A stretch of DNA of 64,000 nt from Escherichia coli (GCF_002854065.1 NZ_CP024147.1), one strand, 5' to 3'; positions 13,755-51,843 are shown, counted from the first letter of the stretch. Notes: generated from the sequence alone by a model not told the origin. Program-made: numbers and translations.

Positions 13755-13833
13755 TTCTGGTAAAATTCGCTAGCGAAACACGCCTTTTTAATCGCGCTTG
13801 CGGCATATTTCGCGAGCGAATGCAGGAAAAATA

Positions 13834-33454: not shown

Positions 33455-33733
33455 TCAATGACCGCGTGAATCGGCAATGCGTTGCTGTAACCATAATTCG
33501 ACTTCACTTTTCTTCCAGCGGGAGCACCGGCCCAGCTTAATTGGCTTCGGGAACAGTCCGTCTTTTATCAACTTATAGAACCATTTATCCGTCAGCCCCG
33601 TTAGCTTTGTGATGAAGCGCATATCCACCAGTTGGTCATCAAGCAAAGAAATTTGTTCTGTCATGATGCTGTCTTCCATTGTGGGATTATCCTGAGCTGG
33701 TGGTTGATTGCTCGTTACTACCAGCCCTTCCAC
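33455..33733 (-). CDS. AlpA-family phage/island transcriptional regulator
   Basis: HTH-containing C-terminus (ITKLTGLTDKWFYKLIKDGLFPKPIKLGRCSRWKKSEVELWL); the true start may be the internal Met near 33664. Confidence 0.7.
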   Translation of the reverse strand: MEGLVVTSNQPPAQDNPTMEDSIMTEQISLLDDQLVDMRFITKLTGLTDKWFYKLIKDGLFPKPIKLGRCSRWKKSEVELWLQQRIADSRGH

Positions 33734-33771
33734 ATCAATGGATTGATACGTAAAAAAGTGCAGAACGTGAG

Positions 33772-34350
33772 TTATAGTGAGCGAGGACGCCCCAGTCCGC
33801 TGGGCGGCGGTACCTCACTGGCTCCGTAGTGATAGTGACCGTGCTTTTGCTCTTCTTTGGCAAGGTAGCTGATGATGTAGCGCAGGTTATCGATGGCTTC
33901 GGTATCATCGTAGTTCACCGGCTTATCAATACTGACGTCATAAGTAGGTTTGTATTCGCAGCGGTTGTAATAGCCTTCTCGTTGCGTTATTTCCCGCCAT
34001 ATTGTTCCGACTCTCTCAGCTATTGGGTAGGTAGCCTGGTTAAGGTGCCTGTCGAGATAGAACACGATATGAGCATGGCAGCCGTGGTCTACAGAGCTCT
34101 CCAGTACCCAGAAATACCCTGCCAGATTTGTGTGCTGCAGGGTGCGTTCAACCAGCATGCGTACCTCTCGCTCTGTTTCGTTCCATGAATGACGTTTAAA
34201 GCGCTCTGTACCTTTCTGATAGAACAGGTCGAGTCGGAGTGCCTGTATTTGGGAATATCGGTTCAGTAGCTGATTCAGGTGGTCATTGAGTAGAGACAGT
34301 AGAAACCAGTTCATCGTGTATCTGGGGTTAAATGGGTAAGGTGTATGCAT
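33772..34350 (-). CDS. Inovirus Gp2-family protein (island backbone)
   Basis: Family recognised from the conserved core (HAHIVFYLDRH); start uncertain, the longest ORF extends to 34539. Confidence 0.5.
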   Translation of the reverse strand: MHTPYPFNPRYTMNWFLLSLLNDHLNQLLNRYSQIQALRLDLFYQKGTERFKRHSWNETEREVRMLVERTLQHTNLAGYFWVLESSVDHGCHAHIVFYLDRHLNQATYPIAERVGTIWREITQREGYYNRCEYKPTYDVSIDKPVNYDDTEAIDNLRYIISYLAKEEQKHGHYHYGASEVPPPSGLGRPRSL

Positions 34351-34755
34351 TGATTTATCCTTTGTCAGGTGGAGTACAAAGGATTGGGATGGGATGTAAT
34401 TTTTAAGAGAAGCAGAGATACAGGGAACTGCGTATCCAGGGGAATACAGGCAGGGTTGCTTGTTGGGGAAGGGGCTATGAACAGAGTGGTATAGAAACAG
34501 GGAGTCCCCCTTAATTATACTAAAAACCCAAATGTTCATATCTGCTGTTGAACGATGCTAATGAGGTGAGCACAGGAGGATTGTAGGGTGAAAACAACAG
34601 GAATAATGCAGTAAAATGTCAGGCTTTTATCACAATTAAATCAGTAGGATATCAGTAAAAAATCAGCCATTCCTCAGCCTGTGACCCACCTCCCTCTACC
34701 TAAAAGATGCTCATGCTAATCTGTGTTCAGGAGCCAGAATTAGAGGGAGGAGACG

Positions 34756-35673
34756 ATGTTGCATTACGATATGATCCGCTATGAAATAATGTACCTAAAA
34801 ACGCTGGACAGGCATTTCAATACAGATCACTCGTTACTGTGCAGTACTTATGATAGGCCCGATGATTTTCGACGCTTGATCTCTCAGATACTTGAACGGC
34901 ATTTTCTTGGCGATCAGGACAGAATCAAAATTGCGCGGAAAACACTTAAAGAATGGGCTGACCTGCAACTGATTGATAAAGAATATTTTGATTGTTTCAA
35001 AGGCACACCAAGAGCATCGTGGTTTGCTCACCATTATATTTTTGAATACCCAGTATTACCTGCAGGGTTGAAACTTGGTGGGTTGGGGAATGACGTCGGT
35101 TGTTCAGGTGGTTTTAATTCTCTTTTAATGAACGATAATATCTTCACAAATCTTGATTTCTCTAATTTGAATATCGACCTGGACGATATAGATTGGGACC
35201 TGATAACAAATCCACAGGCCACTGCTTCGAAAAAAACGAAACGCGTTTTCTCCCGATTTTATCTGAACGCGGGAGCAAGTACCGATCTGTACAACCCCAC
35301 TCCGGTAACTGAGCGTGAACTCATCAATGGTGTGATGAGGTACATTGATGAAGCACCATGCTCACTTGGAGATAAGATCACTTATTTCAAAAAACTGCAT
35401 GAGCGCTGGCTTGAGCAATATGATTTTTTTCTAACAGATTTTGACTGGATGTCACGTGATGATGAAACTCAGTTAGTATATCTCTGGGACTATCTCAAAG
35501 GAAAGGGACGAATAGCGAGCTATCTTCGCCCTTATAATACGTCTATGCGTTATGACATGATTATTGCGGCTATGGATGTGTGGAACGCCCAACCTGAAGA
35601 GAAGCTGGAGTTTATTGAGAAGATGAAACATGCCTGGCAGGCAGCGAAATCTTACCGGAAATCTGCTAAATAG
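34756..35673 (+). CDS. Hypothetical protein
   Basis: 305 aa ORF with no recognised motif; reasonable coding length and context. Confidence 0.35.
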   Translation: MLHYDMIRYEIMYLKTLDRHFNTDHSLLCSTYDRPDDFRRLISQILERHFLGDQDRIKIARKTLKEWADLQLIDKEYFDCFKGTPRASWFAHHYIFEYPVLPAGLKLGGLGNDVGCSGGFNSLLMNDNIFTNLDFSNLNIDLDDIDWDLITNPQATASKKTKRVFSRFYLNAGASTDLYNPTPVTERELINGVMRYIDEAPCSLGDKITYFKKLHERWLEQYDFFLTDFDWMSRDDETQLVYLWDYLKGKGRIASYLRPYNTSMRYDMIIAAMDVWNAQPEEKLEFIEKMKHAWQAAKSYRKSAK

Positions 35674-36035: not shown

Positions 36036-36512
36036 CTAAGTATTACTGGGATTATTAAAAGGGATAATACTGGCCAATCCGTCATCTACATCAAGACCAT
36101 AGGCAACTGCTATTTCTGCCACAGAGGTACCACACTTTTTTCGCAGTTTAAAAAGCGCTCGCTCAAGCATAGATACTTGCACAGGATGATCAAATCGGAT
36201 GAACTGAGGGGAGCCAACACTGTCACCGAATTCTTGGCATGCCTTTCTCATTTTCCTTAATTGATTTGCTAAATATGAATCGCTCGGTAAACCTTGTAGG
36301 ATTTTAGTCAATTCAGATCTAATGCTGATAACACTCTGAATGCAATGACTAGTATCCTCCATATCGACAGGATTGAAAAGAACTCGCTTGTCCTCAAGAA
36401 AAATGACGATCTTCTTCGCTTCGTCAGCTTCTATTATTGGAGCATTCCACTGAATCCCGAATATAGGGCAGCTAAGGCCTGTAATATTTTTATAGATTCG
36501 TTCAAATTTCAA
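36036..36512 (-). CDS. Hypothetical protein
   Basis: 158 aa ORF convergent with the preceding gene; no recognised motif. Confidence 0.3.
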   Translation of the reverse strand: MKFERIYKNITGLSCPIFGIQWNAPIIEADEAKKIVIFLEDKRVLFNPVDMEDTSHCIQSVISIRSELTKILQGLPSDSYLANQLRKMRKACQEFGDSVGSPQFIRFDHPVQVSMLERALFKLRKKCGTSVAEIAVAYGLDVDDGLASIIPFNNPSNT

Positions 36513-37085
36513 AACTCACTCCTTTGATGGACACATAACGCCTATACAGTCATGATGAGAAACGGACTCGGTTCGAGTAATCTGTTAGATAGCATCACTC
36601 GTAACTACTGTAAAAATAGTTGCTATCATGCTTATTGTCACTATAAATATTACTTAATGTCAGTCAGTTAAGAACGATTATTATCCCCCACAATATAAAA
36701 TGTGTGTGGGGGCTATTTTTTCCAAGAGGTAGGCTTCATCAAAGATAAACTACATGAGAAGAACGCCTTAACTTGCTCAAATGGATTGTGTTACAACAGT
36801 CTTGGTAACGTTTGCTATTGGCACATAGCGGGTCTTCAACCCAGTTAGCTCGCCCATTCTGTGCAAGTAGTGGACAATGAATGAAAAGATATTGGGTCGG
36901 ATTAACCTTGCGAAGGCCATCTAAGTCTGTGACGAACATTTCTTCAAGCATCTGAGGCCCTCAGCTCGCACCTAGAATTTTAATTTTGATGCATTTTGCC
37001 TTAGCTTGAGCATTGGAATGTGGCCTGATAACCGGTGTTTTCTTTTACTGGCCGTCCACAGACTCGATGACGCATTTATTCCCGA

Positions 37086-38903
37086 CTACCTTAAACCTGC
37101 CCCTCTCATTCGCTCCTCCAGTTCATCCAGAAATGGGGAACGCCCTAGACGCATAGGGCCGTAGCGACCATCAACAAAACCGGAATACAGCATATGCACC
37201 TCGTCCCGTGCGCGGGTCAGCCCCACATAGAAAAGACGTCGGCTTTCACGCAGCTTCTCTGGCGTCTCATTACGCCACGGCAAATTCCCCAGATCTAAGC
37301 CGACCATGATAACCACGTCATATTCGCAACCTTTGGCTGAGTGAAGTGTCAGCAAATTGAGGTGCTCAGGTGAACCGTCACGACCACCTAGGCTCGTGAT
37401 ATCCAACATCGCTAACGCACCGCCTTCGGCAAGTGCTGCAGTCATGCGATCTAGTTGCTCAGCCTGATCAGAAAGCGTTGGTTCAGTTGCCAGCAGGGAA
37501 TCAACGAGACCGTTGCGCAACGACGCGACAAAATCGGATGCAGAATGTTGGTCGGCACGAAGTGCCCAAAGTAGCCTGGTTAACTCCTGCCCCTTACTCC
37601 GGGCGCATGCATCATCCAGCCTTGCCCGATGAAATGCCAGATAACGGTCTATAAGTCCGCGCAGTTGAGGGCGCCCGATACGCCAACCGCCAGCACACCA
37701 TGCTGCGCAATCCTCCACCCAGCTCGTCAAGGCAACTTTGCGATAAGGTGCTGCGGTATCCACACGAATGTAATCAAAACCGCTAGCTGTCACCGCATCG
37801 GCCACAACATCGCCGGCACGGTAGTCCTTGTACAGAATGGCGATATCACCCAGTGTTCGGCCCGGCTTAGCAGCCAACGCAGCAGGAATAATCTGCTCGA
37901 CAGCATAGACAGCCTGATCCCCCAAGCCATCCGGACACAGCTGGAACGCAATGGTTGTCTGGCGGTTTGGGTCGTTTGCGCGATAACCACGAACCTCACC
38001 CAACACCATCTCCGATGCATTCACGATGTCCGCTCCTGATCTATAGTTCAACTGGAGCCGGACTGTTTCAACGTCTCTCCTGCCTGCCAGTTCTAGTAGT
38101 AACGCACCATCGGCACCAGTGAAACCGTAAATAGATTGGTCTGCATCACCCACTGCAAATAAGCGTACGCCTCCCTCGAAAGCCAGACGTTTGACCATAC
38201 GATGGAGTGCCACGCCCAAATCTTGATATTCATCTACCGCAAGGATCGGAAATTTCGCCTGTACTAGGGGCAGAACCCAATCATGCTCAATTATCAGACG
38301 CTGACCAAATATCACCATATCGTCGTAGTCTATCAGCCCTTGCTGCCGCAATGCAGCTTCGTAGGCCTCGGCCCATGCAGCGAGTTCCTCCTCTGTACGC
38401 CAGGCAACGCTGTTGCGATTCAACACCGAACGGCGATGCCGTCCGAGATCAATAGCCTTATAGGGATGGTTTGCGCCAAAGAGACGGTCACCAGATTGTC
38501 GAAGTAACCGTTCGCTCTCGCGCTGAGACGCTACTGACAGCGGAAATGGGATTGGCAGATCGGCCAGTCGCCCATAGGGCATCAACAGATGGCGCAAGCA
38601 GAACCCATGAACGGTTCCAATAAAGAGATTCGGTGCCTCTCTAAGCCCCAGCGCTTCGAGACGACGGGTTAGCTCGCGTGCGCATTCTTGGCTATATGTG
38701 ATACATGCCGCACCACGTGGAGCTTGAACATCCTCAGCTAGGATTCGTGCCAGCTTCAGCACAAGCGTCTTTGTCTTACCACTCCCCGGGCCCGCGAGCA
38801 CCACGCAGTGTCCCTGGGAGTGATACGCGGATAACTGGCCCGGATTCCCGGCCAGCTCGGCAGCCTGAGCTAAGTAGGCTGCACTGACACTACGTGACGG
38901 CAT
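37086..38903 (-). CDS. gajB: UvrD/PcrA-family SF1 helicase, GajB-like
   Basis: Motifs VLAGPGSGKTKTL (Walker A), ILAVDEYQDLG (motif II), AVGDADQSIYGFTGA (motif III); start set at the ATG overlapping the upstream gene by 14 bp. Confidence 0.7.
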   Translation of the reverse strand: MPSRSVSAAYLAQAAELAGNPGQLSAYHSQGHCVVLAGPGSGKTKTLVLKLARILAEDVQAPRGAACITYSQECARELTRRLEALGLREAPNLFIGTVHGFCLRHLLMPYGRLADLPIPFPLSVASQRESERLLRQSGDRLFGANHPYKAIDLGRHRRSVLNRNSVAWRTEEELAAWAEAYEAALRQQGLIDYDDMVIFGQRLIIEHDWVLPLVQAKFPILAVDEYQDLGVALHRMVKRLAFEGGVRLFAVGDADQSIYGFTGADGALLLELAGRRDVETVRLQLNYRSGADIVNASEMVLGEVRGYRANDPNRQTTIAFQLCPDGLGDQAVYAVEQIIPAALAAKPGRTLGDIAILYKDYRAGDVVADAVTASGFDYIRVDTAAPYRKVALTSWVEDCAAWCAGGWRIGRPQLRGLIDRYLAFHRARLDDACARSKGQELTRLLWALRADQHSASDFVASLRNGLVDSLLATEPTLSDQAEQLDRMTAALAEGGALAMLDITSLGGRDGSPEHLNLLTLHSAKGCEYDVVIMVGLDLGNLPWRNETPEKLRESRRLFYVGLTRARDEVHMLYSGFVDGRYGPMRLGRSPFLDELEERMRGAGLR

Positions 38904-40674
38904 CGCAGATATACTCCAGTGCTTCACGAATGTAATCCGGGCATACATCCTCCGACACCGAGGGTGCCAGCGCTTGGGCGAACCGCCCTTTGCCAATTCG
39001 CTCAATCAGTTTCAACAACCGGACATTATCAAGCTGGTCCGTGTCATCCACCCACGCCTGTATCCTGTTCAGAGTAGCTCGTCTAGGAGACAATTCCTGC
39101 TCGATAACCAACTTCATGGCTTCGCCCAGTCCACCGGTAAACAGCTCTGGCTCCAGAGTGGTCTCATTGACGAAGCATCCAAAATCTCCGGCACGTGCAA
39201 TCACCTCCTCGGTAGTCATATCATCATGATCAACATCGCTCTCAAGCACGTCTAAGATATTGATAAATCTCTTACGAACCAGCGGCTCTCCATCCTCCTC
39301 AGGATCGCGGTCTGTCAGAATCACATGTGGAATATTGAGTCCCCGCGGCCCTAGGAGCTTCACATACGGAGTGAAATTTGTTCCACCGATCGAGCACACC
39401 GTGATCCCAAGCATATCTAGGGGAATATTAAGAGCATCAGCGAATGCTGGGACAAGAAAGCGTTCAGCATCCCCTTCCACCAAGATCACCCCACGTGAAA
39501 AGAATATTTCGCCGCGAGTGACATCGATATAGCGCTGCAGATCATCTTCGTCCCGCGGCGTAAACGGTGCGTTTGCCGTTGAAACCGCAATCGTCTTCCC
39601 TCCCTCCGGATCATGGCGCAGCAAAACGATGGATCTGATTGGTGTGACGCTGGCGATATGCGGGGAATGGGTGGTCAGGATCGTTGTCAACGGTGTTCCT
39701 TCATCACCATTGTCTCCGTCAGTCCCTAGGAAATAACGGTAAACCAGGCGCTGTACGTGCGGATGTAGGTGCGCTTCCGGCTCCTCGACTACGAAAAACG
39801 TATGGTCTCGTTCTCCGTCATTAACAAGACGATCAAGTTCGAGGCTTTTTAGGGCAAGAAAAATCAGATTAGCTGTCCCCAGACTGGCATCGCCAATGCC
39901 ACGAATGCCACTATCAAGCAGCAAACGCAGGCTACGTAGCAGCGCATCAACGCGAGTCGGTGCAAGTCCGAGCGATACCGGAACGGCATGTTGCTCACCT
40001 GCGATAGCTATCAACCTTTCGCTAATTCGTTCGGCTGTCGCTGCCACCTCATCATGATCAGCCAGTTCCCGTTGAGCCTCATCAACTTGGGTTTGAATCT
40101 CCTCACGAGTCTCGTCGTCCAGAGATGCGGACAGTTCTTCAATAAGCGGTCTTAAGGGTGAATTACGCCAGCTTGAAAGGTCCTTCTCGGCATCACGCAA
40201 CGCGCCTTGAACATCAATGGGCAACATACGGCGAAAGGCACCACCAATATGCATGTCAGGATCAGCTCCACCGAAGATCACATACTCATAATCTTTTAAC
40301 GATTCAGGAGCTCGATTTAACGCGGTTTTGGGCTGAAAGCGGTAGGTAAGACGGGCCACCATCGGAGGCCCCGGATTTAGGACACAGTCATTCAGATGAG
40401 CCATCAATCGGGGATCGTCAGTGAACTCAGTAAGATCCACTGAAATTTCGATGGTCTCCCCCAGTTTGTCTTCGCCCAATCCATCCCAAAAATGTTCAAA
40501 ACCCAGTTGACGGTCACGCTCAGACAACCCTGGGTCAAGAATCAGCTGCAGGCCGCGAATAAAATTGCTCTTGCCAACCTTGTTTTCACCAACAATAACA
40601 ATACTCTCACCCGTTTCAACATCAACATCGGAGAAGTTGGCGAAATTAATTAACCGGATTCGGGAAATCCGCAT
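38890..40674 (-). CDS. gajA: OLD-family ATPase with C-terminal TOPRIM nuclease domain, GajA-like
   Basis: N-terminal ABC ATPase (IRLINFANF, GENKVGKSN, VVEEPEAHLHP, LTTHSP) and C-terminal TOPRIM (VILVEGDAERFLVPAF). Confidence 0.7.
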   Translation of the reverse strand: MRISRIRLINFANFSDVDVETGESIVIVGENKVGKSNFIRGLQLILDPGLSERDRQLGFEHFWDGLGEDKLGETIEISVDLTEFTDDPRLMAHLNDCVLNPGPPMVARLTYRFQPKTALNRAPESLKDYEYVIFGGADPDMHIGGAFRRMLPIDVQGALRDAEKDLSSWRNSPLRPLIEELSASLDDETREEIQTQVDEAQRELADHDEVAATAERISERLIAIAGEQHAVPVSLGLAPTRVDALLRSLRLLLDSGIRGIGDASLGTANLIFLALKSLELDRLVNDGERDHTFFVVEEPEAHLHPHVQRLVYRYFLGTDGDNGDEGTPLTTILTTHSPHIASVTPIRSIVLLRHDPEGGKTIAVSTANAPFTPRDEDDLQRYIDVTRGEIFFSRGVILVEGDAERFLVPAFADALNIPLDMLGITVCSIGGTNFTPYVKLLGPRGLNIPHVILTDRDPEEDGEPLVRKRFINILDVLESDVDHDDMTTEEVIARAGDFGCFVNETTLEPELFTGGLGEAMKLVIEQELSPRRATLNRIQAWVDDTDQLDNVRLLKLIERIGKGRFAQALAPSVSEDVCPDYIREALEYICDAVT

Positions 40675-41229
40675 TACTGCCTCCCTATCTTTTTAATTAT
40701 CTTCCCAAAATAAGAGTAGAACTCAAACCACAAGAGACTGCCTGGCACGACCAAATTTGCTGAGGGATACGGTTGCGATCAGAACGGTACTTGGTCATTG
40801 CACATTTTTTACTGTTCAAATCTATGCGTCCAACGAAGGTAACAACCTATCGTAACAGAGAGCTAAAACATGCCTATGATCCATCTCACATAGTGGCTGT
40901 TTGTCGTCACAGTCTTACAATGCACTCTGTGCAATGCATTACTCCCATTGGCCGACCAGACCGATGAACTGGCACGGCGGTGTGCTTCACACACTCTAGC
41001 GATACGGCACAATATCAACAGACACTGACTGGCCTCGTCAAAATAGTACAGTACAGACTTAGCACCGTCTGACTTTGGCGCTAAGCGGAGATCTTTCAGT
41101 CTTGGACTGCACAAAGTCCTTTGCGTTAATCTAAAATTCCAAATAATTTCAGACAGATATTATCTCATTGAATCCCCGCCTTCCTGACTGGATCGCGGGG
41201 TTTTTAATTTTTCACGCTGAGACTTCTGT

Positions 41230-42105
41230 ATGAATAAACCTGACGGCCTTCAGGCCTTTGAACAACCGCTTGCGTCGCTTCCGTGCACACTTCGCCAGCT
41301 TATTCTTGAACGTATCCAGAACCTGACCCATTACGAGCCGGTGATTGGAATCATGGGCAAAAGTGGTACAGGTAAATCCTCTCTCTGCAACGAACTTTTC
41401 CGGGGCGAGGTGTCCCCGGTGAGTGACGTGAATGCCTGTACTCGCGACGTGCTGCGTTTCCGGTTACGCAGTGGGCGTCACAGCCTGGTGATTGTTGATT
41501 TACCGGGCGTGGGCGAAAACGGGCAGCGGGATCAAGAATACCGTGCCCTGTACCGTCGAATCCTGCCGGAGCTGGACCTGGTGCTGTGGGTCATTAAGGC
41601 CGATGATCGGGCACTAACCGTGGACGAGCAGTTCTGGCACGGTGTGATGCAAACTTACAGGCAAAAGGTACTGTTCGTGATTAACCAGGCCGACAAAATC
41701 GAACCCTGCCATGAATGGGATACCCTCACCAGCAAACCTTCACCGCACCAACTGGGAAATCTTAAAGCGAAGCAGGCTGCGATTATGGTGATGTTTAAAC
41801 CGCATCATCCGGTCTGTGTGGTGTCAGCCCGCACTGGATGGGGCATTGAGGAGATGGTGGCAGCCATGATGCGCTGTCTGCCTGACCGCGCCACCAGCCC
41901 GGTGGTGACACAACTGCACAGGAAACTCTGCACAGAGCCGGTAAAGTCGCAGGCTCGTGACAGTTTCGGTGAAGCTGTGGGCCGGGTTTTCGATACCGCA
42001 GAATCATCTTCGTTCCTGTCTACATCGCTGAAAACGGTGATTCGTAGCGTGCGTGATGCGGTGGTGTCGGTCGCACGGGCCGTCTGGGACTGGATATTCT
42101 TCTGA
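41230..42105 (+). CDS. YfjP/YkfA-family GTPase (prophage CP4-57-like)
   Basis: G1 motif GKSGTGKSS, DLPG, NQADK. Confidence 0.75.
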   Translation: MNKPDGLQAFEQPLASLPCTLRQLILERIQNLTHYEPVIGIMGKSGTGKSSLCNELFRGEVSPVSDVNACTRDVLRFRLRSGRHSLVIVDLPGVGENGQRDQEYRALYRRILPELDLVLWVIKADDRALTVDEQFWHGVMQTYRQKVLFVINQADKIEPCHEWDTLTSKPSPHQLGNLKAKQAAIMVMFKPHHPVCVVSARTGWGIEEMVAAMMRCLPDRATSPVVTQLHRKLCTEPVKSQARDSFGEAVGRVFDTAESSSFLSTSLKTVIRSVRDAVVSVARAVWDWIFF

Positions 42106-42348
42106 TATCGCAATTTTCTCTGCGAATGATGAACTTGTTGTTAATGATGTGTTGATTGTGGACACGTCCTTTCCATTGCGTTTTATCATCAACAAAATCA
42201 GGAGAAGCATCATTATCTGTCAGACGAGCGCTCACAAGGCCGGGCTGCTCATAAAAAATAGTTCCGATGTTGTCCATACCCTGTCCACCCCTTCCTTTAA
42301 AGTAATCATTATTAATTCAGAGAGTTAACTTCTCAGGAGAAATCTTTC

Positions 42349-43065
42349 ATGACGCTTCAGGAGCGGCGACATGACCGGCTTGCCGTCAGGTTGTCGTTGA
42401 TTATCAGCCGCCTGGTGTCCGGTGAAACTCTGTTTATTCGCAAACTGGCAACTGAATTCGGGGTGTCAGAGCGCACGTTACGTCGTGACTTTCGGGAACG
42501 TCTGATGTATCTCGACCTGGATTATTACCAGGGGCAGTGCAGTCTGCGCTCGGATATTCACAGTACGCGGCAGGAAATAGATATTCTGACCTTTGCTCAC
42601 CGTACGGGGCTGGCCGGGGTTTTCCCGGGCTTTGACCGGCGACTGGTCAGCAGCCTGCTGGACTGTGATGATCGACCCTGTCTGGTATGGCATCAGGACA
42701 GACCTCATCCCCCGGCAGGAAAGCTCTCCTTCTACAGGCTGGTCAGAGCTATTTCTGAATGTCAGCGCATCACCATTCTGACTGAAGGGGAGCGTCATGA
42801 GGCCGTTGCACCTTACCGGCTAATCGCTCTGGACGGTTACTGGTATCTGGTCGCTGAACATAACAGGCAATTACGTGTCTTCCGGCTGGATGAGATTCAT
42901 CTGGTAAGGCCATCGCGGGAAACATTTATTCGCAGTGAGCTTCTCTATCAGCTGTCGGAGGATAAACATTTTATCTCTGCCTTACCTCATTTCCGTTTTA
43001 TTCAGCAGTCGCTGAATTCATTTTCTCCCTCAGAAAGTCGGGGGCAATCCGGACAAACTGATTAG
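42349..43065 (+). CDS. WYL-domain transcriptional regulator (YfjR-like)
   Basis: N-terminal HTH ([14 protein letters not shown]) and WYL-like region (DGYWYLVA). Confidence 0.65.
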
Positions 43066-43100
43066 AGATGGTCTCCATAATTAAATGTAAGGTTAATCTA

Positions 43101-43553
43101 ATGAAAGAATTGAAATTGTTGTCTTTACTGCCAGTCATATTGTTCCCCTTACTTATCGCAGGTAATGCTCACGCAGCACGTCCTTATAGCGGATTCCTGC
43201 CTGCAGCAGTGAATAATAAGAGTGGGAATATATTCTGGTGTGATGCCCACCGCCAGGTCAGAAAACTGTGTACAGCGACGGAAGTGGATTCAATGGGATG
43301 GTTTATTGTTGTTCGCTCGAAACCTTCCAGAGATTGTCCGGGGGGCCTTTGGGGGTGGATCACTCCCAGTAAAGACGATGTAGCAACAGGGTATACCATT
43401 ACGCCAGGTAAAGAATTCAATCTCACCATGAAGGATATGTGCAGTCCCGATATGAAAGTAACGTTCCGCCCGAATAAAAAGGACCCTCGTTATGACGATC
43501 TCGTCGGGATTTATGCAGGGAAAGAAGCTTTTCGCTACAAACAAATAAAATAA
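43101..43553 (+). CDS. Lipoprotein/secreted protein (YfjS-like)
   Basis: Signal peptide MKELKLLSLLPVILFPLLIAGNAHA. Confidence 0.5.
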   Translation: MKELKLLSLLPVILFPLLIAGNAHAARPYSGFLPAAVNNKSGNIFWCDAHRQVRKLCTATEVDSMGWFIVVRSKPSRDCPGGLWGWITPSKDDVATGYTITPGKEFNLTMKDMCSPDMKVTFRPNKKDPRYDDLVGIYAGKEAFRYKQIK

Positions 43554-43624
43554 TCCAACTGTTTTTTCGTTACTTTATTGTTTTAAACAACAAAAGCCTT
43601 ATTACATGATTTGAGGACAACATT

Positions 43625-44098
43625 ATGCGACTGCCTTACGTAATATTTACATTAGCTATGCTGGCTTCTGTATCAACAGCACAGGCTATTCCCAATATGT
43701 GGACGAGTGGTTTTGGGATGGGCGTGACCGAATATATTATTACCAGCCCGGAGAAGGTGGTGTTTAATCTGAACTGTACTGGCAATCCGGATGCGCAGAA
43801 TATTCTGCAACACGGTGTTGATCTCACCCTGCCTGATGGAACATCAGTAAGCTCTCATGACGACGGAACGGAAATCACGGTCGTCATGGATAACAGTCAG
43901 TATCCGTTACCGTCATTCCTCGGCTGGCGAAACGGTGACAATGCCTGGGTGTCATTTATTGACGCCCTGAGCCAGTCTGCGAATTTTGATGTTTACGTCA
44001 ACGATAAAAAAGTCGGCACCTTCAGTCCGGGGCTGAAGAATACGCAGAAAGAGCTGTCTGACCTCAGTGAGTGCCGGACCACACACTACAGCGATTAG
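43625..44098 (+). CDS. Secreted protein (YfjT-like)
   Basis: Signal peptide MRLPYVIFTLAMLASVSTAQA. Confidence 0.5.
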   Translation: MRLPYVIFTLAMLASVSTAQAIPNMWTSGFGMGVTEYIITSPEKVVFNLNCTGNPDAQNILQHGVDLTLPDGTSVSSHDDGTEITVVMDNSQYPLPSFLGWRNGDNAWVSFIDALSQSANFDVYVNDKKVGTFSPGLKNTQKELSDLSECRTTHYSD

Positions 44099-44218
44099 TT
44101 ACTTACATTTCAGACCTCTCCAGCCCGCTACGCACCAACACCAGATAGCAACAGGCCATGCTCCTTCGGGAACATGGCCTTTTTTGTTTTTATTTGATTA
44201 TCAGATAAGGAGTTAGCT

Positions 44219-45040
44219 ATGCGACTAGCCAGCCGCTTTGGCCGTATAAACCAGATACGCCGTGACCGGCCTCTGACCCACGAAGAGCTGATGAGTCATG
44301 TACCCAGCGTGTTCGGGAGTGACAAGCATGAATCTCGTTCAGACAGGTACACCTACATCCCGACCATCACCATCCTCGAAAGCCTGCAGCGGGAAGGCTT
44401 TGAGCCGTTCTTTGCCTGCCAGACAAAAGTTCGCGACCAGAGCAAGCGGGAGCACACCAAGCACATGCTTCGACTGCGTCGCTCCGGGCAACTGACCGGG
44501 CATCAGGTGCCGGAAATCATTCTACTTAACAGCCATGACGGCTCATCAAGCTACCAGATGCTGCCGGGCCTGTTTCGTGGCGTCTGTACCAACGGCCTGG
44601 TCTGCGGTCAGTCATTCGGAGAAGTGCGGGTACCGCATAAAGGGAATGTTGTCGAGAAGGTGATTGAAGGGGCTTACGAAGTGCTCGGTGTGTTTGACCG
44701 GGTGGAGGAGAAGCGCGATGCAATGCAGTCACTGGCACTGCCAGAACCAGCCCGTAACGCCCTGGCGAATGCCGCGCTGAAGTATCGCTTTGGTGAAGAC
44801 CACCAGCCGGTCACGGTATCGCAGTTGCTGACCCCACGTCGCCGGGAGGACTACAGCGATGACCTGTGGACCGTATACCAGCGCGTGCAGGAGAACCTGA
44901 TGAAAGGAGGTCTGTCAGGGCGAACCGCTCAGGGGAAAAGCAGCCGCACCCGTGCTGTTATCGGCATTGACGGCGATGTGAAACTCAATCGCGCCCTGTG
45001 GATTATGGCAGAAAACATGCTCGAATTTTTCGGGCGTTAA
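44219..45040 (+). CDS. DUF932-family protein (YfjQ-like)
   Basis: 273 aa; matches the remembered CP4-57/CP4-44 family and gene order. Confidence 0.6.
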   Translation: MRLASRFGRINQIRRDRPLTHEELMSHVPSVFGSDKHESRSDRYTYIPTITILESLQREGFEPFFACQTKVRDQSKREHTKHMLRLRRSGQLTGHQVPEIILLNSHDGSSSYQMLPGLFRGVCTNGLVCGQSFGEVRVPHKGNVVEKVIEGAYEVLGVFDRVEEKRDAMQSLALPEPARNALANAALKYRFGEDHQPVTVSQLLTPRRREDYSDDLWTVYQRVQENLMKGGLSGRTAQGKSSRTRAVIGIDGDVKLNRALWIMAENMLEFFGR

Positions 45041-45070
45041 ACAACCGTTCCGGCATAAGGAGATAGTTTA

Positions 45071-45511
45071 ATGGATACCCACAACCCTGAGTTTGCTGAG
45101 CAGGCAGCAATTACTGCCTCGGTAGTCCCTGACGAGTTACGTATCGGCTTCTGGCCAAAGCGCTTTGGATCTATCCCACAATGGATAACCCTTGAGCCCC
45201 AAATATTTGGCTGGATGGATCGTCTGTGCGCTGATTACAGCGGCGGCGCCTGGAGCTTTTACACACTCAGCAACGGCGGCGCATTTATGGCTCCGGAGCC
45301 CGACGGTGAGAAGTGGACGTTGTTCAACCCGATGAATGGAAACGATGCGGAGATGAGCGGAGAGGCTGCCGGTATAGCGGCCTGCCTGATGGCATACAGC
45401 CACCACGCTTGTCGCACCGAATGTGACGCGATGACTGAGCACTATTATCGCTTACGTGACTACGCGCTAAACCATCCGGAATGCAGCGCCATTATGTATC
45501 TAATCGACTGA
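45071..45511 (+). CDS. Antirestriction protein, ArdB/KlcA family (YfjX-like)
   Basis: 146 aa; family call from the conserved core (FYTLSNGGAFMAPE). Confidence 0.65.
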   Translation: MDTHNPEFAEQAAITASVVPDELRIGFWPKRFGSIPQWITLEPQIFGWMDRLCADYSGGAWSFYTLSNGGAFMAPEPDGEKWTLFNPMNGNDAEMSGEAAGIAACLMAYSHHACRTECDAMTEHYYRLRDYALNHPECSAIMYLID

Positions 45512-45523
45512 GGAATACCTGAC

Positions 45524-46066
45524 ATGAATATCGCATTATCCCCGGTATCATCGCAGCCTGAACTCTTTCCGCTGGCGGTTATGGCCCAGCATAGTTGCCT
45601 GCTCCCCGCGACCTCCGGATTGACACCTTATGCCCAACGGACCATTCGACGTGCTATCAACCTGCTGGATAAATATCTGCGCCAGCCCGGCATGTCCTTT
45701 ACCTCAAGCACGGCTGCCCGTGACTGGCTTCGGTTACAGCTGGCAGGACAAGAACGGGAAGTGTTTATGGTGCTCTATCTCGATAACCAGCACCGTTTAC
45801 TGGAGAGTGAAACGCTATTTGCCGGTTCGGTTAACCATGTCCAGGTCCATCCCCGTGAGGTGGTGAAGTCAGCGCTTCGCTTCAATGCTGCTGCTGTTGT
45901 GCTGGCGCATAACCATCCATCCGGTGATCCGGAGCCCAGCCAATGTGACCGCAACATTACGGGCAGGCTTAAAGAAGCGCTGGCACTGGTTGATGTGAAC
46001 ACTCTCGATCATCTGGTTATCGGTTCAGATGGAATTGTGTCGTTTGCAGAGCGAGGCTGGATATGA
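45524..46066 (+). CDS. RadC-like JAB/MPN domain protein (YfjY/YeeS-like)
   Basis: JAMM motif HNHPSGDPEPSQCD. Confidence 0.8.
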   Translation: MNIALSPVSSQPELFPLAVMAQHSCLLPATSGLTPYAQRTIRRAINLLDKYLRQPGMSFTSSTAARDWLRLQLAGQEREVFMVLYLDNQHRLLESETLFAGSVNHVQVHPREVVKSALRFNAAAVVLAHNHPSGDPEPSQCDRNITGRLKEALALVDVNTLDHLVIGSDGIVSFAERGWI

Positions 46067-46076
46067 GGGCACTTCA

Positions 46077-46418
46077 ATGAAATCTACTGACTCAGAGAAC
46101 GATTCATTTCTCAAGTGGGGTCTGAATCGTAATGTGACACCTTGCTTTGGCGCTCGTCTGGTACAGGAGGGAAACCGGCTGCACTATCTGGCTGACCGGG
46201 CCAGTATCACCGGTAAGTTCAGCGAAGCAGAATGTCTTAAGCTGGATATGGCATTCCCGCATTTTATTAGCCAGATGGAATCGATGCTGACTACTGGTGA
46301 AATGAATCCTCGCCATGCCCACTGTGTCACCCTGTACCACAATGGTTTCACCTGCGAAGCCGATACCCTTGGCAGTTGCGGCTACGTATACATCGCCGTT
46401 TACTCCACCCATCGTTAA
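46077..46418 (+). CDS. Type IV toxin-antitoxin antitoxin, CbeA/YeeU/YfjZ family
   Basis: Conserved [22 protein letters not shown]...CGYVY region. Confidence 0.8.
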
Positions 46419-46438
46419 CTACTTTCACAAGAGCAAAT

Positions 46439-46780
46439 ATGAAAACTCTACCTGCAACAAATCCGCAGGCGGCGAAGCTATGTCTGTCGCCCGTGGCTGT
46501 CTGGCAAATGCTGCTTGCACGCCTGCTGGAACAACATTATGGCCTGACACTCAACGACACGCCATTCAGTGATGAAACGGTAATTCAGCAACATATCGAT
46601 GCCGGTATATCTTTGGCCGATGCCGTTAATTTTCTGGTGGAAAAGTACGGGCTGGTTCGTATTGATCGCAGGGGATTCGACTGGCAAGAACAGTCCCCAT
46701 ATCTGCGGGCAGTCGATATTCTGCGGGCGCGACAGGCAACTGGTTTATTGAAAAGAAATCGTATTAGCGCGGCACGGTGA
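46439..46780 (+). CDS. Type IV toxin-antitoxin toxin, CbtA/YeeV/YpjF family
   Basis: 113 aa immediately downstream of the CbeA-like gene. Confidence 0.75.
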
Positions 46781-47043
46781 ATATTGGGAATAGCCTTCCT
46801 GATTCACACTGCAGCTTTCCTTACTTATTTAATTTACTCATTCCAAAAAGCACCTGCCGATGCTGGTTGGTGCTTTTACTTATATGGACGAAATATCATG
46901 CAAATAGAAGCTGTAATTTTAACTGGGCACATTATCGCAAGTACAATCCGGGAATGCTGGGCCGTCGTTGTTGATGGTTTTGACGCATGCGGCGAACAAG
47001 CTTATGATCCAGCTTAATTTCTTTTCCTCATGAAGGGACGGGT

Positions 47044-48051
47044 ATGGGCAACAGAATGTGGATGATTCGCGGTGACGGCGGCAAGCTCTATGACGATTTT
47101 CGCGATAAGCAAATTGTAGGCATCGGTTGGTCTCAGCTGGCTCCATTAGTCAAACCCGGCCTGTCCCGAGCCCAGTTACTCGCCTTATACCAGGAGGCAG
47201 ATCCCTTAACAAAGCTGGGAACAGCCCGTTCTGGTGCATCGCAGGTCTGGCGTTTTGTGAATGAGATCCAAAAGGGTGATTGGGTTATTACCTATTCGCC
47301 AGCCAACCGTACTTATTTGCTAGGCAAAGTCACATCCGACTTCCAATATCATCCTGAATGGGTGGAAGAGGGGATGGGGATCGCTCGGCAGGTTAAATGG
47401 AATACTCAAGAAATCGACCGCGATAGACTGTCTGTTGCTACCAAAAACACATTGGGTTCTACGCTGACGGTTTTTCAGCTTCCAGAATATGCGCTAGAAG
47501 AGCTTTTGCAGGATAAGAAACCCACTATAGATGTAATTACTCAGAATCCAGTTGCAATGGATGAAGATGAGGTCGTTTCTGATCCGCTTCGCGATATGGA
47601 AATGCTGGCGTTTGAGGGTATCAAAGATCGTATTAACTCTCTTGATTGGGACGAGATGCAAAATCTTGTTGCCGGAGTTTTACGCAGTATGGGCTATAAA
47701 ACGCAGGTTTCACCTGCGGGAGCCGATCGGGGTAAAGACATCATTGCTTCACCTGATGGGTTCGGTTTTGAAAATCCGCGTATTATCGTTGAGGTAAAGC
47801 ACCGCAGGGAACAGATGGGAAGCCAACAGATACGCAGCTTTATCGGCGGTCGCCATAAAGACGATCGCGGGCTTTATGTCAGTACAGGGGGTTTTACGAA
47901 AGATGCTCGATATGAAGCCGACCGTTCGACGATACCACTGACGCTCTGGACACTTGATGATCTCGTCCGTGCGCTTATTGAGAACTACGAACAAGTTGAT
48001 ATCGAGACTAAACTTTTGGTGCCTCTGAAGAAAACTTTCCTGCCTGCCTGA
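47044..48051 (+). CDS. Mrr-like restriction endonuclease (Mrr catalytic domain) with an uncharacterised N-terminal domain
   Basis: C-terminal core GADRGKDIIA...RIIVEVKHRR...GLYVSTGGFTKDA resembles the Mrr catalytic domain. Confidence 0.6.
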   Translation: MGNRMWMIRGDGGKLYDDFRDKQIVGIGWSQLAPLVKPGLSRAQLLALYQEADPLTKLGTARSGASQVWRFVNEIQKGDWVITYSPANRTYLLGKVTSDFQYHPEWVEEGMGIARQVKWNTQEIDRDRLSVATKNTLGSTLTVFQLPEYALEELLQDKKPTIDVITQNPVAMDEDEVVSDPLRDMEMLAFEGIKDRINSLDWDEMQNLVAGVLRSMGYKTQVSPAGADRGKDIIASPDGFGFENPRIIVEVKHRREQMGSQQIRSFIGGRHKDDRGLYVSTGGFTKDARYEADRSTIPLTLWTLDDLVRALIENYEQVDIETKLLVPLKKTFLPA

Positions 48052-48211: not shown

Positions 48212-48430
48212 TTCGAGTCCGGCCTTCGCACCTTCGCACCTTCGCACCATCGGAACATCAATAGACATCAACGGACGTTTTTTTATGACTGAAATCCGCG
48301 CCACACAAGGCTTTTCGCTATTTTTCGCTCAACCTAAGTCAACCTACATCAACTTACTGATGTGGATACAGCTACAGCTGCGGCTATACCCCGATTCGAT
48401 AATGTTTGTACCCACACAAAACCCTTGAAA
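48212..48430. repeat. Partial direct repeat of the leuX 3' end plus integrase-upstream region (island right boundary / older att site)
   Basis: About 220 bp imperfect direct repeat of 8422-8640 (shared strings ttcgagtccggccttcg..., ...cggttcgataatgtttgtacccacaca.aacccttgaaagg). Confidence 0.75.
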
Positions 48431-49665: not shown

Positions 49666-49672
49666 TGAACGC

Positions 49673-50680: not shown

Positions 50681-50717
50681 ATTGATAGCAGGGCCCCTTT
50701 ACCGGGGCCCTGAAGCG

Positions 50718-51824: not shown

Positions 51825-51843
51825 TGTGACTGTCTCCTGTCTA

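What the first reader, a model, noticed from the sequence alone, without database searches (positions are those of the whole stretch)
37086..40674. Gabija-like OLD-family ATPase/TOPRIM plus UvrD-like helicase pair
The 594 aa protein combines an ABC ATPase head with a C-terminal TOPRIM domain (GajA/OLD architecture), and the downstream protein is an SF1 helicase with UvrD motifs (GajB-like). The upstream ORF annotated for the helicase would overlap gajA by 116 bp; a start at the ATG 38901-38903 gives a 14 bp overlap and a more plausible product. The pair sits next to the CP4-57-like module, separated from the other defense genes by unknown ORFs.
Basis: partly seen in the sequence, partly recalled or inferred. 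Interest (0 to 1): 0.6.

Follow-up and report, generated by a model that had tools for sequence, protein, structure and literature searches.

The report
Ordinary Gabija anti-phage gene pair
This is an intact two-gene Gabija anti-phage system (an OLD-type nuclease plus a UvrD-like helicase) carried as a mobile cassette in an E. coli genomic island; it is real and correctly read, but it belongs to an already well-described family.

Summary
gajA is 38890-40674 (594 aa). gajB is 37086-38903 (605 aa). They share a 14-bp overlap, ATGCCGTCACGTAG.

PADLOC's GajA and GajB profiles match end to end, at 776 and 790 bits. The C-terminal 220 aa of GajA are 75% identical to the crystallised Xanthomonas Class 2 OLD nuclease. 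All seven catalytic residues defined in the Burkholderia enzyme (E400, E404, D455, D457, T506, E508, K562) sit at the same residue numbers. Every SF1 helicase motif in GajB is intact.

The proposed ATG start is already the RefSeq annotation. Diverged homologues support it: they keep 8-23 bp overlaps, and one has an in-frame stop one codon upstream of the aligned ATG.

The pair is a 3.9-kb, roughly 55% GC cassette found in 20 of 5,426 complete E. coli genomes and in different islands. Here it occupies the cargo slot of a CP4-57-type element at leuX, the slot that holds abpAB and rnlAB in K-12.

The one point of interest is that this clade differs from the Bacillus cereus type system. GajA is only 16% identical to it, and the helicase looks more like genuine UvrD. 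Anti-phage activity of this clade was not found tested in the papers read.

Verdict: already known, low interest.

The parts
38890..40674 (-). gajA: Class 2 OLD-family nuclease, 594 aa. Walker A is G29-S36 (K35). Walker B and the catalytic Glu are E297/E298. The H-loop residue is H336. TOPRIM residues are E400, G401, E404 and D455-x-D457. The class-2 helical insert carries T506, E508 and K562.
   Evidence: ORF. Pfam AAA_15 plus OLD-like_TOPRIM. PADLOC GajA PDLC00070 at 776 bits, residues 1-593 on profile 1-595 of 596. Motif positions. Invariance across 74 homologues. Model and fold matches.
39556..40674 (-). gajA N-terminal region (aa 1-373): ABC ATPase head with an inserted helical dimerisation-type domain (helices at about aa 175-285).
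   Evidence: Pfam AAA_15/AAA_21/AAA_29. Secondary structure of the model. Full-length fold match to B. cereus GajA 8SM3_A/8U7I_A at TM 0.62-0.67.
38896..39555 (-). gajA C-terminal region (aa 374-593): TOPRIM domain plus the Class 2-specific helical domain. This is the nuclease active site.
   Evidence: phmmer against PDB: 6NJV (Xanthomonas OLD CTR) E=2.6e-104 and 6NK8 (Burkholderia) E=6.4e-86. Identity 75% (165/220). Foldseek TMt 0.94, rmsd about 1 A. Catalytic residues as defined in PMC6755086.
37086..38903 (-). gajB: SF1A UvrD-like helicase, 605 aa, starting at ATG 38903. Motif I is GPGSGKT 38-44. Motif Ia is TVHGF 97-101. Motif II is DEYQD 224-228. Motif III is GDADQSIYGF 252-261. Motif IV is NYRS 286-289. 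Motif V is TLHSAKG 519-525. Motif VI is YVGLTRA 559-565.
   Evidence: PADLOC GajB PDLC00117 at 790 bits; RefSeq WP_001757884.1.
38890..38903 (-). 14-bp gajA/gajB overlap (ATGCCGTCACGTAG). The gajB start codon lies inside the last codons of gajA, an arrangement consistent with translational coupling.
   Evidence: Sequence. The same 14-bp overlap occurs in the Rhodobacter and Pseudomonas cassettes. Overlaps of 8-23 bp occur in other diverged homologues.
38914..38917 (-). GGAG Shine-Dalgarno-like element 10 nt upstream of the gajB ATG.
   Evidence: Sequence. GGAG is kept in the E. coli, Rhodobacter and Pseudomonas junctions, and GGGAG in Staphylococcus. It lies inside gajA coding sequence, so its conservation is not independent evidence.
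40680..40686 (-). AGGGAGG Shine-Dalgarno sequence 5 nt upstream of the gajA ATG (40674).
   Evidence: Sequence. The upstream reading frame is closed by TAA in the window.
36988..40910 (.). Mobile gajAB cassette: the block shared at 91-95% nucleotide identity with E. coli loci that otherwise have different flanks. It includes about 236 bp upstream of gajA and about 98 bp downstream of gajB. GC is about 0.52-0.55, against 0.40-0.43 in the left flank.
   Evidence: blastn of the window against L003, L004 and L005. Contexts. Composition.

Best explanation
This is an intact, horizontally acquired Gabija system (a Class 2 OLD nuclease, GajA, plus its dedicated UvrD-like helicase, GajB). The two genes are probably expressed as one operon.

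The likely mechanism is as follows.
- GajA oligomerises through its ATPase and dimerisation domains and docks GajB, forming a nuclease-helicase complex. This is inferred from the B. cereus 4:4 structure.
- The complex is held inactive in uninfected cells.
- On infection it engages phage DNA, and the TOPRIM site cuts it by two-metal catalysis. Metal A is held by E400, D455 and D457. Metal B is held by E404, T506 and E508. K562 acts on the scissile phosphate.
- The result is a block to genome circularisation or replication.

Shown here: gene integrity, all catalytic motifs, the fold, conserved gene linkage and cassette mobility.

Inferred from homologues: complex formation, the trigger, and the anti-phage outcome.

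This GajA is 75% identical over its nuclease region to Xanthomonas OLD. Its closest biochemical model is therefore the Xanthomonas and Burkholderia enzymes, which are non-specific metal-dependent nickase/exonucleases that hydrolyse ATP and are not inhibited by it. The sequence-specific, ATP-inhibited nickase of B. cereus is a poorer model.

The helicase keeps a UvrD-like pin hairpin. I therefore favour a model in which the complex attacks exposed linear DNA ends, as proposed for Pseudomonas PA14 Gabija, over a purely nucleotide-depletion-sensing abortive model.

The confidence of 0.9 is for the identification as a Gabija / Class 2 OLD pair. That it actively protects this host from phage I put at about 0.7, and the DNA-end trigger model at about 0.3-0.4.
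For: Family assignment:
- PADLOC GajA at 776 bits and GajB at 790 bits, both full length.
- Pfam AAA_15 plus OLD-like_TOPRIM, and UvrD-helicase plus UvrD_C.

Active site:
- E400, E404, D455, D457, T506, E508 and K562 are all present.
- These are the residues shown by mutagenesis and crystallography in Burkholderia OLD (PMC6755086).
- They are invariant or at least 90% conserved across 74 homologues of 32-81% identity.

Structure:
- GajA model pLDDT 92.8.
- The best full-length PDB matches are B. cereus GajA (TM 0.62-0.67).
- The C-terminal region matches 6NJV and 6NK8 at TM 0.94.
- GajB model pLDDT 87.1 with a UvrD/PcrA/Rep fold at E about 1e-31.

Linkage:
- A 593-608 aa UvrD-type helicase follows gajA with an 8-23 bp overlap in Rhodobacter, Rhizobium, Staphylococcus, Pantoea, Pseudomonas and three metagenomic homologues down to 38% identity.

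Mobility and defence context:
- The same cassette sits in a CP4-57-type island here, at a tRNA-Thr island, in an ICE next to Hachiman or ABC-three-component systems and a CHAT protein, and in PAPI-1-type ICEs.
- The slot used here holds abpAB and rnlAB in K-12.

Function of the family:
- Gabija defence was shown for B. cereus, an E. coli plasmid system and PA14 (PMC10781630; 10.1101/2022.08.21.504612; PMC12407980).
- Class 2 OLD is treated as synonymous with GajA in PMC10568477.
Against: - In the papers I read, no member of this particular clade has been tested against phage. The 2023 review lists phage targets of Burkholderia OLD as 'Unknown'.
- GajA is only about 16% identical to the experimentally defined B. 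cereus GajA, and phmmer aligns only residues 292-459.
- The helicase resembles genuine UvrD (TMq 0.62-0.67) much more than B. cereus GajB (TMq 0.37, rank 50). Complex architecture may therefore differ.
- No convincing sigma-70 promoter or terminator was found by the consensus scan.
- The upstream region is not conserved outside enterobacterial cassettes.
- The choice between the trigger models is inference only.
Confidence: 0.9

Rival explanations
1. The pair is a DNA-repair or recombination helicase-nuclease (a UvrD/Rep/AddAB-like paralogue) that serves the host or the island, not an immune system.
For: The GajB sequence and fold are closest to UvrD, PcrA and Rep. It keeps a pin-like hairpin. 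Burkholderia and Xanthomonas OLD behave in vitro as non-specific nucleases.
Against: - GajB scores 157-179 bits against equivalog cut-offs of 911-1168 for PcrA, UvrD and Rep.
- It lacks UvrD's C-terminal roughly 70 aa and the GIG motif.
- The pair is present in only 20 of 5,426 E. coli genomes.
- It is always on mobile elements among other defence genes.
- It is strictly linked to an OLD nuclease across phyla.
Confidence: 0.03
2. The genes are an inactive remnant, cargo decaying inside a cryptic CP4-57-like element.
For: The surrounding island is mosaic, with pseudogenes and IS fragments in the related strain 744. No consensus promoter was detected. One distant homologue locus (L017) has a degraded helicase.
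Against: - Both ORFs are full length relative to homologues.
- All catalytic and nucleotide-binding motifs are intact.
- A strong SD precedes gajA.
- The cassette is 99.7-100% identical in six E. coli genomes from unrelated sources.
Confidence: 0.05
3. It is a functional Gabija that works like the B. cereus type system. GajA would be a sequence-specific nickase kept off by physiological NTP/dNTP. It would be switched on when phage replication depletes nucleotides. GajB would then hydrolyse nucleotides, producing abortive infection.
For: This is the published model for B. cereus Gabija (PMC8136825; summarised). The ATPase motifs that mediate nucleotide sensing (K35 and the H-loop His) are conserved here.
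Against: - The nearest characterised enzymes (Burkholderia and Xanthomonas OLD, 59-75% identical in the nuclease region) are non-specific, hydrolyse ATP and are not inhibited by it.
- PA14 Gabija was reported to be non-abortive and to act before replication.
- B. cereus GajB lacks the pin and does not unwind DNA, whereas this GajB keeps the pin segment.
Confidence: 0.25
4. Its main role is competition between mobile elements, excluding incoming plasmids, ICEs or transduced DNA for the benefit of the island. Phage defence would be a side effect.
For: The cassette travels on ICEs, plasmids and islands. PA14 Gabija also restricts transduced plasmid DNA under some conditions. E. coli plasmid Gabija sits in plasmid leading regions.
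Against: This is not exclusive with phage defence, and there are no data for this clade. Every experimental reading of Gabija so far includes phage restriction.
Confidence: 0.1

Closest known systems
Class 2 OLD nucleases of Xanthomonas campestris pv. campestris and Burkholderia pseudomallei, with their adjacent UvrD/PcrA/Rep-like helicases (Schiltz et al. 2019, PDB 6NJV/6NJW/6NJX and 6NK8)
   Same: - Same protein length class (594 aa).
- The C-terminal 220 aa are 75% identical to Xcc OLD. By Foldseek they are 59% identical to Bp OLD.
- The model superposes at TM 0.94.
- The seven catalytic residues sit at identical residue numbers.
- A helicase gene lies immediately downstream.
- Full-length Xanthomonas homologues are 79-80% identical.
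   Different: The host is E. coli, and the carrier is a CP4-57-type island at leuX. Only the isolated C-terminal regions of the Xcc and Bp enzymes were crystallised, and their anti-phage activity is listed as unknown.
Bacillus cereus VD045 Gabija, GajA-GajB (Doron 2018; PDB 8SM3, 8U7I, 8J4T, 8TJY, 8X5I)
   Same: - Two-gene operon of an OLD ATPase-TOPRIM nuclease followed by an SF1 UvrD-like protein.
- It is the best full-length fold match for GajA (TM 0.62-0.67).
- TOPRIM E/G/DxD and Walker A Lys are conserved.
   Different: - GajA is about 16% identical, and phmmer aligns only residues 292-459.
- GajB here is 605 aa against 494 aa. It matches BcGajB at only TMq 0.37, against 0.62-0.67 for UvrD.
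- It keeps a pin-like hairpin that BcGajB lacks.
- Biochemistry probably follows the Bp/Xcc type (non-specific, ATP-hydrolysing) rather than the ATP-inhibited site-specific nickase.
Pseudomonas aeruginosa PA14 Gabija on PAPI-1 (Hong et al. 2025 preprint, PMC12407980)
   Same: Proteobacterial Gabija carried on an ICE or island. Homologues 81% (GajA) and 85% (GajB) identical to the window's proteins sit in PAPI-1-type ICEs of P. aeruginosa with the same 14-bp overlap.
   Different: I could not show that the PA14 proteins are this clade. The paper quotes the GajB DExx motif as DESQ, whereas this GajB and its Pseudomonas relatives have DEYQD.
E. coli housekeeping UvrD (and Rep, PcrA)
   Same: SF1A fold with all helicase motifs. 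About 25% identity with colinear 1A/1B/2A domains, and a pin-hairpin segment of equal length.
   Different: - Far below the equivalog cut-offs.
- Shorter, divergent 2B domain without the GIG motif.
- No C-terminal extension.
- Encoded on a mobile cassette and overlapping an OLD nuclease gene.

Membership tests
Gabija / Class 2 OLD system (GajA + GajB) | GajA has an N-terminal ABC-type ATPase with Walker A, Walker B and an H-loop | tested here: met
   GENKVGKS 29-36, EE 297-298 and H336. K35 and E298 are invariant, and E297 and H336 are at least 90% conserved, in 74 homologues. Pfam AAA_15/AAA_21.
Gabija / Class 2 OLD system (GajA + GajB) | C-terminal TOPRIM domain with the invariant Glu, the Gly and the DxD motif | tested here: met
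   E400, G401 and D455-R-D457, all invariant in alignment A1. Pfam OLD-like_TOPRIM E=1.9e-19.
Gabija / Class 2 OLD system (GajA + GajB) | Class 2-specific helical domain after TOPRIM that supplies the metal-B ligands and the catalytic Lys (Bp OLD T506, E508, K562) | tested here: met
   T506, E508 and K562 are present at the same numbers. Residues 374-593 match 6NJV at E=2.6e-104. Foldseek TMt 0.94, rmsd about 1 A.
Gabija / Class 2 OLD system (GajA + GajB) | UvrD/PcrA/Rep-like SF1 helicase gene immediately downstream on the same strand | tested here: met
   gajB 37086-38903 overlaps gajA by 14 bp. Pfam UvrD-helicase plus UvrD_C. Motifs I-VI are intact.
Gabija / Class 2 OLD system (GajA + GajB) | The nuclease-helicase linkage is conserved in diverged relatives, so it is a system and not a chance neighbourhood | tested here: met
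   8 of 9 diverged loci checked (35-81% GajA identity) keep a 593-608 aa helicase with an 8-23 bp overlap. One locus has a degraded helicase.
Gabija / Class 2 OLD system (GajA + GajB) | Match to curated GajA and GajB profile HMMs | tested here: met
   PADLOC PDLC00070 at 776 bits and PDLC00117 at 790 bits, both essentially full length.
Gabija / Class 2 OLD system (GajA + GajB) | Overall GajA fold like the solved GajA | tested here: met
   Model pLDDT 92.8. 8U7I_A, 8SM3_A and 8X5I at TM 0.62-0.67 rank above Class 1 TsOLD (TMq 0.49) and retron-Eco8 OLD (0.47).
Gabija / Class 2 OLD system (GajA + GajB) | GajB fold like the solved B. cereus GajB | tested here: inconclusive
   8SM3_B is matched (E=9e-17) but only at TMq 0.37/TMt 0.43, rank 50. 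UvrD, PcrA and Rep fit better.
Gabija / Class 2 OLD system (GajA + GajB) | GajA tetramer plus four GajB form a 4:4 complex | not testable with these tools
   Only monomer prediction is available. This needs co-purification with SEC-MALS, or cryo-EM.
Gabija / Class 2 OLD system (GajA + GajB) | Both genes are required for protection against phage | not testable with these tools
   This needs plaque assays. No test of this clade was found in the papers read.
Housekeeping UvrD / Rep / PcrA helicases | Score above the NCBIfam equivalog cut-off | tested here: not met
   PcrA 179 against 911. UvrD 157-168 against 965-1144. Rep 131-158 against 951-1168.
Housekeeping UvrD / Rep / PcrA helicases | 2B-domain GIG motif and a C-terminal extension | tested here: not met
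   In the alignment with E. coli UvrD there is no GIG, the 2B domain is shorter, and the last roughly 70 aa of UvrD are absent.
Class 1 OLD (stand-alone: P2 Old, TsOLD, YbjD) | Single gene with no partner helicase, and no helical insert after TOPRIM | tested here: not met
   A helicase partner is present and the Class 2 helical domain is present. The Pfam DUF2813 (YbjD) match is weak at 24 bits.
Class 3 OLD (retron Eco8-type effector) | Adjacent reverse transcriptase and ncRNA, and a match to the retron_eff_Eco8 model | tested here: not met
   NF038234 scores 44 bits against a cut-off of 250. The neighbours are a helicase and a GTPase gene, with no RT.
PARIS (AriA/AriB) and Septu (PtuA/PtuB) | The ATPase and the nuclease are separate proteins (AriB TOPRIM, PtuB HNH) | tested here: not met
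   ATPase and TOPRIM are fused in one 594-aa protein. The PtuA model scores 26 bits against 500. All of the 25 best PADLOC hits shown are GajA models.

The most novel reading that the evidence does not exclude
The proteobacterial Bp/Xcc-type clade, to which this cassette belongs, may work differently from the B. cereus type system. GajB would be a true unwinding helicase: it has a UvrD-like fold and a retained pin hairpin. It would feed DNA to a non-specific, ATP-hydrolysing GajA nuclease. That makes a RecBCD-like end-processing machine that destroys linear DNA ends not occupied by RecBCD. It would not be a nucleotide-depletion-sensing, site-specific nickase causing abortive infection.
Probability: 0.3. 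Interest if true: 0.4.

Novelty: already known. Interest (0 to 1): 0.15.

Why it matters
It matters little as a discovery. Gabija is one of the commonest and best-studied of the newer anti-phage systems, and existing profile HMMs recognise this pair at full length.

It has some modest uses:
- It gives an E. coli-native representative of the Bp/Xcc Class 2 OLD clade. For that clade there are crystal structures and in-vitro nuclease data, but the papers I read report no phage phenotype. An E. coli copy could be tested directly with the standard coliphage panel and recBCD genetics.
- It documents that the yfjJ-yfjP slot of CP4-57-type elements is a swap site for defence cargo (abpAB and rnlAB in K-12, Gabija here). 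This flags the two uncharacterised neighbouring ORFs as candidates.
- It settles the gajB start codon.

Tried and rejected
- Longer gajB ORF (TTG 39005, or ATG 38948). Rejected. ATG 38948 is lost in a 92.6%-identical relative. The extension is not conserved as protein. A Staphylococcus homologue has a stop one codon before the aligned ATG. Profile register and homologue lengths fit 605 aa.
- Longer gajA. PGAP or 605 aa in two relatives. Rejected for the window: the upstream frame is closed by TAA, and the longer calls stem from a 1-nt indel.
- A third gene in the system. The DUF6650 gene (36036-36512) and the 305-aa ORF (34756-35673) were considered. Rejected: they are absent next to the cassette in other contexts, and each occurs on its own elsewhere.
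- A conserved regulatory element upstream of gajA. The 236-bp block is conserved only among enterobacterial cassettes, not in Pseudomonas or Rhodobacter. No significant inverted repeats were found. No consensus promoter or terminator was found on the correct strand.
- Linking this clade to the experimentally tested PA14 Gabija. No sequences or primers are held in the supplements, and no residue numbers appear in the text. The motif quoted there (DESQ) differs from DEYQD here, so the link was left open.
- Phage-borne copies. Only four weak hits (24-32% identity) turned up in 50,697 phage records.

Full report
**Observation**

The region holds two long minus-strand ORFs. The first is 38890..40674 (594 aa, ATG). 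The second ends at 37086, and its longest mechanical form starts at TTG 39005 (639 aa).

Reading the junction shows ATG at 38903-38901 and the upstream gene's TAG at 38892-38890. Starting the helicase at that ATG gives a 605-aa product and a 14-bp overlap (ATGCCGTCACGTAG). The TTG form would overlap by 116 bp.

A strong ribosome-binding site (AGGGAGG, 5-nt spacer) precedes the first gene. The upstream frame is closed by TAA. A GGAG lies 10 nt before the helicase ATG.

**What the proteins are**

The 594-aa protein carries an ABC-type ATPase and an OLD-like TOPRIM domain:
- Pfam AAA_15, 2e-22.
- Pfam AAA_21, 1e-13.
- Pfam PF20469 (OLD-like TOPRIM), 1.9e-19.

The 605-aa protein carries UvrD-helicase (1.8e-39) and UvrD_C (5.9e-22).

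Against PADLOC, both match Gabija profiles end to end:
- GajA PDLC00070, 776 bits, residues 1-593 on profile 1-595 of 596.
- GajB PDLC00117, 790 bits, residues 5-600 on profile 2-601 of 604.

Against NCBIfam, the helicase is far below the cut-offs for every housekeeping SF1 helicase, for example PcrA at 179 bits against 911 and UvrD at 157 against 1144. The nuclease is far below the retron-Eco8 and PtuA effector models.

**Catalytic machinery**

A sequence search of the PDB found that residues 374-593 match two crystallised C-terminal regions of Class 2 OLD nucleases:
- Xanthomonas campestris, 6NJV, E=2.6e-104, 75% identity (165/220).
- Burkholderia pseudomallei, 6NK8, E=6.4e-86.

The paper describing those structures defines the two-metal site as E400, D455 and D457 (metal A), E404, T506 and E508 (metal B), and K562 (PMC6755086). 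All seven residues are present here at the same residue numbers.

In an alignment of 74 homologues of 32-81% identity:
- K35, E298, E400, G401, D455, D457, E508 and K562 are invariant.
- E297, H336, E404 and T506 are at least 90% conserved.

GajB has all SF1A motifs: GPGSGKT 38-44, TVHGF, DEYQD 224-228, GDADQSIYGF, NYRS, TLHSAKG and YVGLTRA. They are invariant or nearly so in 28 homologues.

**Structure**

An AlphaFold2 model of GajA built on that alignment is confident, with pLDDT 92.8 and pTM 0.89. Foldseek against the PDB gave these matches:

| Target | Score |
|---|---|
| B. cereus GajA (8U7I_A, 8SM3_A, 8X5I), full length | TM 0.62-0.67, about 16% identity |
| Class 1 Thermus OLD, full length | TMq 0.49 |
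| Retron-Eco8 OLD, full length | TMq 0.47 |
| Xcc and Bp C-terminal-region crystal structures | TMt 0.94, rmsd about 1 A |

B. cereus GajA is therefore the best full-length match.

The GajB model has pLDDT 87.1. It matches UvrD, PcrA and Rep best (E about 1e-31, TMq 0.62-0.67). B. cereus GajB appears only at rank 50 (TMq 0.37).

Aligned with E. coli UvrD, this GajB:
- keeps a segment of equal length at UvrD's separation-pin hairpin (GRYGPMRLGRSPF against RRLYGKEVYHRPSRF);
- lacks the GIG motif;
- has a shorter 2B domain;
- lacks UvrD's C-terminal roughly 70 residues.

B. cereus GajB was reported to lack the pin, the gating helix and GIG, and not to unwind DNA (PMC10681800). The pin reading is an inference from the alignment and the model. 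One distant family member (L016) lacks the segment.

**Start codon**

RefSeq already annotates the helicase from ATG 38903 (WP_001757884.1). Five further lines of evidence agree:
- The ATG is conserved in three E. coli relatives, while the alternative in-frame ATG (38948) is Ile in one of them.
- Diverged homologues start at the aligned Met, with overlaps of 14 bp (Rhodobacter), 8 bp (Rhizobium, Pantoea) and 20 bp (Staphylococcus xylosus).
- In the Staphylococcus locus an in-frame stop lies one codon upstream of that Met.
- Of 120 homologue clusters at 75-94% identity, 116 are 603-607 aa.
- Three metagenomic relatives at 38-47% GajA identity have 596-608 aa helicases with 20-23 bp overlaps.

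**Genomic setting**

The window is E. coli. Six complete genomes carry the region at 99.7-100% identity. Twenty of 5,426 carry it at 90% or more.

The window as a whole is not identical to any one of them. It is colinear with strain 744 only over 26658-48232.

The shared block in otherwise unrelated contexts is 36988-40910. Its GC is 0.52-0.55, against 0.40-0.43 to its left.

Contexts differ between genomes:
- Here it lies between a YfjJ/AlpA-like pair and a YfjP-like GTPase gene, followed by DUF932, antirestriction, RadC and YeeU/CbtA genes.
- In strain R32_14_1F it lies in a similar element at tRNA-Thr.
- In others it lies in an ICE near tRNA-Asn, beside Hachiman or an ABC-three-component system and a CHAT protein.

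In K-12 CP4-57 the yfjJ-yfjP interval holds abpBA, yfjM and rnlAB. The same slot therefore carries defence cargo in both.

The island sits between tRNA-Leu(CAA) at 8360-8444 and nanS/nanM/nanC/fimB.

Relatives at about 80% identity are spread across Pseudomonas, Burkholderia, Xanthomonas, Stenotrophomonas, Sinorhizobium and others. In P. aeruginosa they sit in PAPI-1-type ICEs with the same 14-bp overlap. Plasmid copies occur in Rhizobium, Agrobacterium, Streptomyces, Enterobacter and Staphylococcus. Phage copies are essentially absent.

**Mechanism**

Class 2 OLD is treated in the literature as synonymous with GajA (PMC10568477).

For B. cereus:
- GajA tetramers dock four GajB, and complex formation is required for defence (PMC10781630).
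- GajA is a site-specific nickase inhibited by physiological NTPs (PMC8136825).

For Burkholderia and Xanthomonas OLD, the closest characterised relatives of this protein:
- Cleavage is non-specific.
- ATP is hydrolysed.
- ATP does not affect cleavage.

For PA14 Gabija, defence is non-abortive and blocks circularisation of linear DNA that RecBCD does not occupy (PMC12407980).

I therefore commit to a GajA-GajB nuclease-helicase complex that cuts phage DNA by two-metal TOPRIM catalysis. I lean towards the DNA-end model for this clade. The complex, the trigger and the phenotype are inferred, not shown. I could not establish whether the PA14 proteins belong to this clade, because the motif quoted there is DESQ and the motif here is DEYQD.

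**Verdict**

This is a standard Gabija / Class 2 OLD pair that current tools and RefSeq already handle.

The only non-trivial points are:
- its membership in the Bp/Xcc clade, which differs markedly from the B. cereus type system and appears untested against phage;
- its location in a recurrent cargo slot of CP4-57-type elements.

Interest is low.

Noticed in passing
window 10230-19647: A type I restriction-modification operon: hsdR 10230-13754, hsdM 13798-15402 and hsdS 15402-16778. It is followed in the same direction, with overlapping stops and starts, by a PtuA-like ABC ATPase (16775-18481; PADLOC PtuA 149 bits, weaker AriA and mad3 hits). Next comes a 388-aa protein with PtuB, PDC-M62B and PDC-M01B hits (18481-19647). 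This looks like a Septu-like pair fused onto an RM operon.
   Followed up: partly
window 19676-24403: A prokaryotic Argonaute locus. It has pAgo class II (22334-24403, PADLOC 767 bits, no Pfam hit) and an 'Aga_Helical-REase' partner with a DpnII/MboI-type nuclease domain (19676-20848, 440 bits). Two unexamined ORFs lie between them (20836-21315 and 21595-22500).
   Followed up: partly
window 34756-35673 (+) and 36036-36512 (-): Two uncharacterised genes share the yfjJ-yfjP cargo slot with gajAB. One is a 305-aa protein with no Pfam or PADLOC hit. The other is a DUF6650 protein. Each occurs without the other, and without gajAB, in other E. coli genomes. They are independent cargo in a slot that otherwise holds defence systems, which makes them possible uncharacterised defence candidates.
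   Followed up: partly
window 33455-34539 and 41230-48051; K-12 locus L018: The interval between the yfjJ-like gene and the yfjP-like GTPase gene of CP4-57-type elements appears to be a swap site for defence cargo. It holds abpBA, yfjM and rnlAB in K-12. It holds gajAB plus two unknown genes here. In strain R32_14_1F it holds an HNH/Dcm pair, an AAA ATPase pair, a restriction endonuclease and gajAB. An Mrr-type restriction endonuclease (47044-48051) and a YeeU/CbtA pair close the module on the right.
   Followed up: partly
L003 10903-12810; L004 10903-12720: RefSeq calls GajA as 635 aa and 605 aa in two E. coli relatives, against 594 aa here. The extra N-terminal residues arise from a 1-nt indel that opens the upstream frame. 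The conserved start with the strong SD is the MRISRIRL Met. This is an annotation inconsistency, not biology.
   Followed up: yes
window 1-26657 and 48233-64000: The window is colinear with the best-matching genome (strain 744) only over 26658-48232. The left part of the leuX island is different cargo: strain 744 has a different type I RM, a WYL protein and a TIR protein. On the right, strain 744 has a second integrase, IS elements, Hachiman and reverse transcriptases, where the window runs straight into nanS-nanM-nanC-fimB-fimE-fimA-fimD. The leuX island is highly mosaic between strains.
   Followed up: partly
L017 5232-6973: In one distant GajA homologue locus (35% identity, GCA_025148065.2) the helicase partner is reduced to a 114-aa UvrD_C fragment after an uncalled gap. 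This suggests a decayed Gabija.
   Followed up: no
plasmid-collection hit H16, CP125156.1: A 5.37-Mb Klebsiella pneumoniae record in the plasmid collection carries a 92.4%-identical GajA. From its size, the record is almost certainly a chromosome filed as a plasmid.
   Followed up: no
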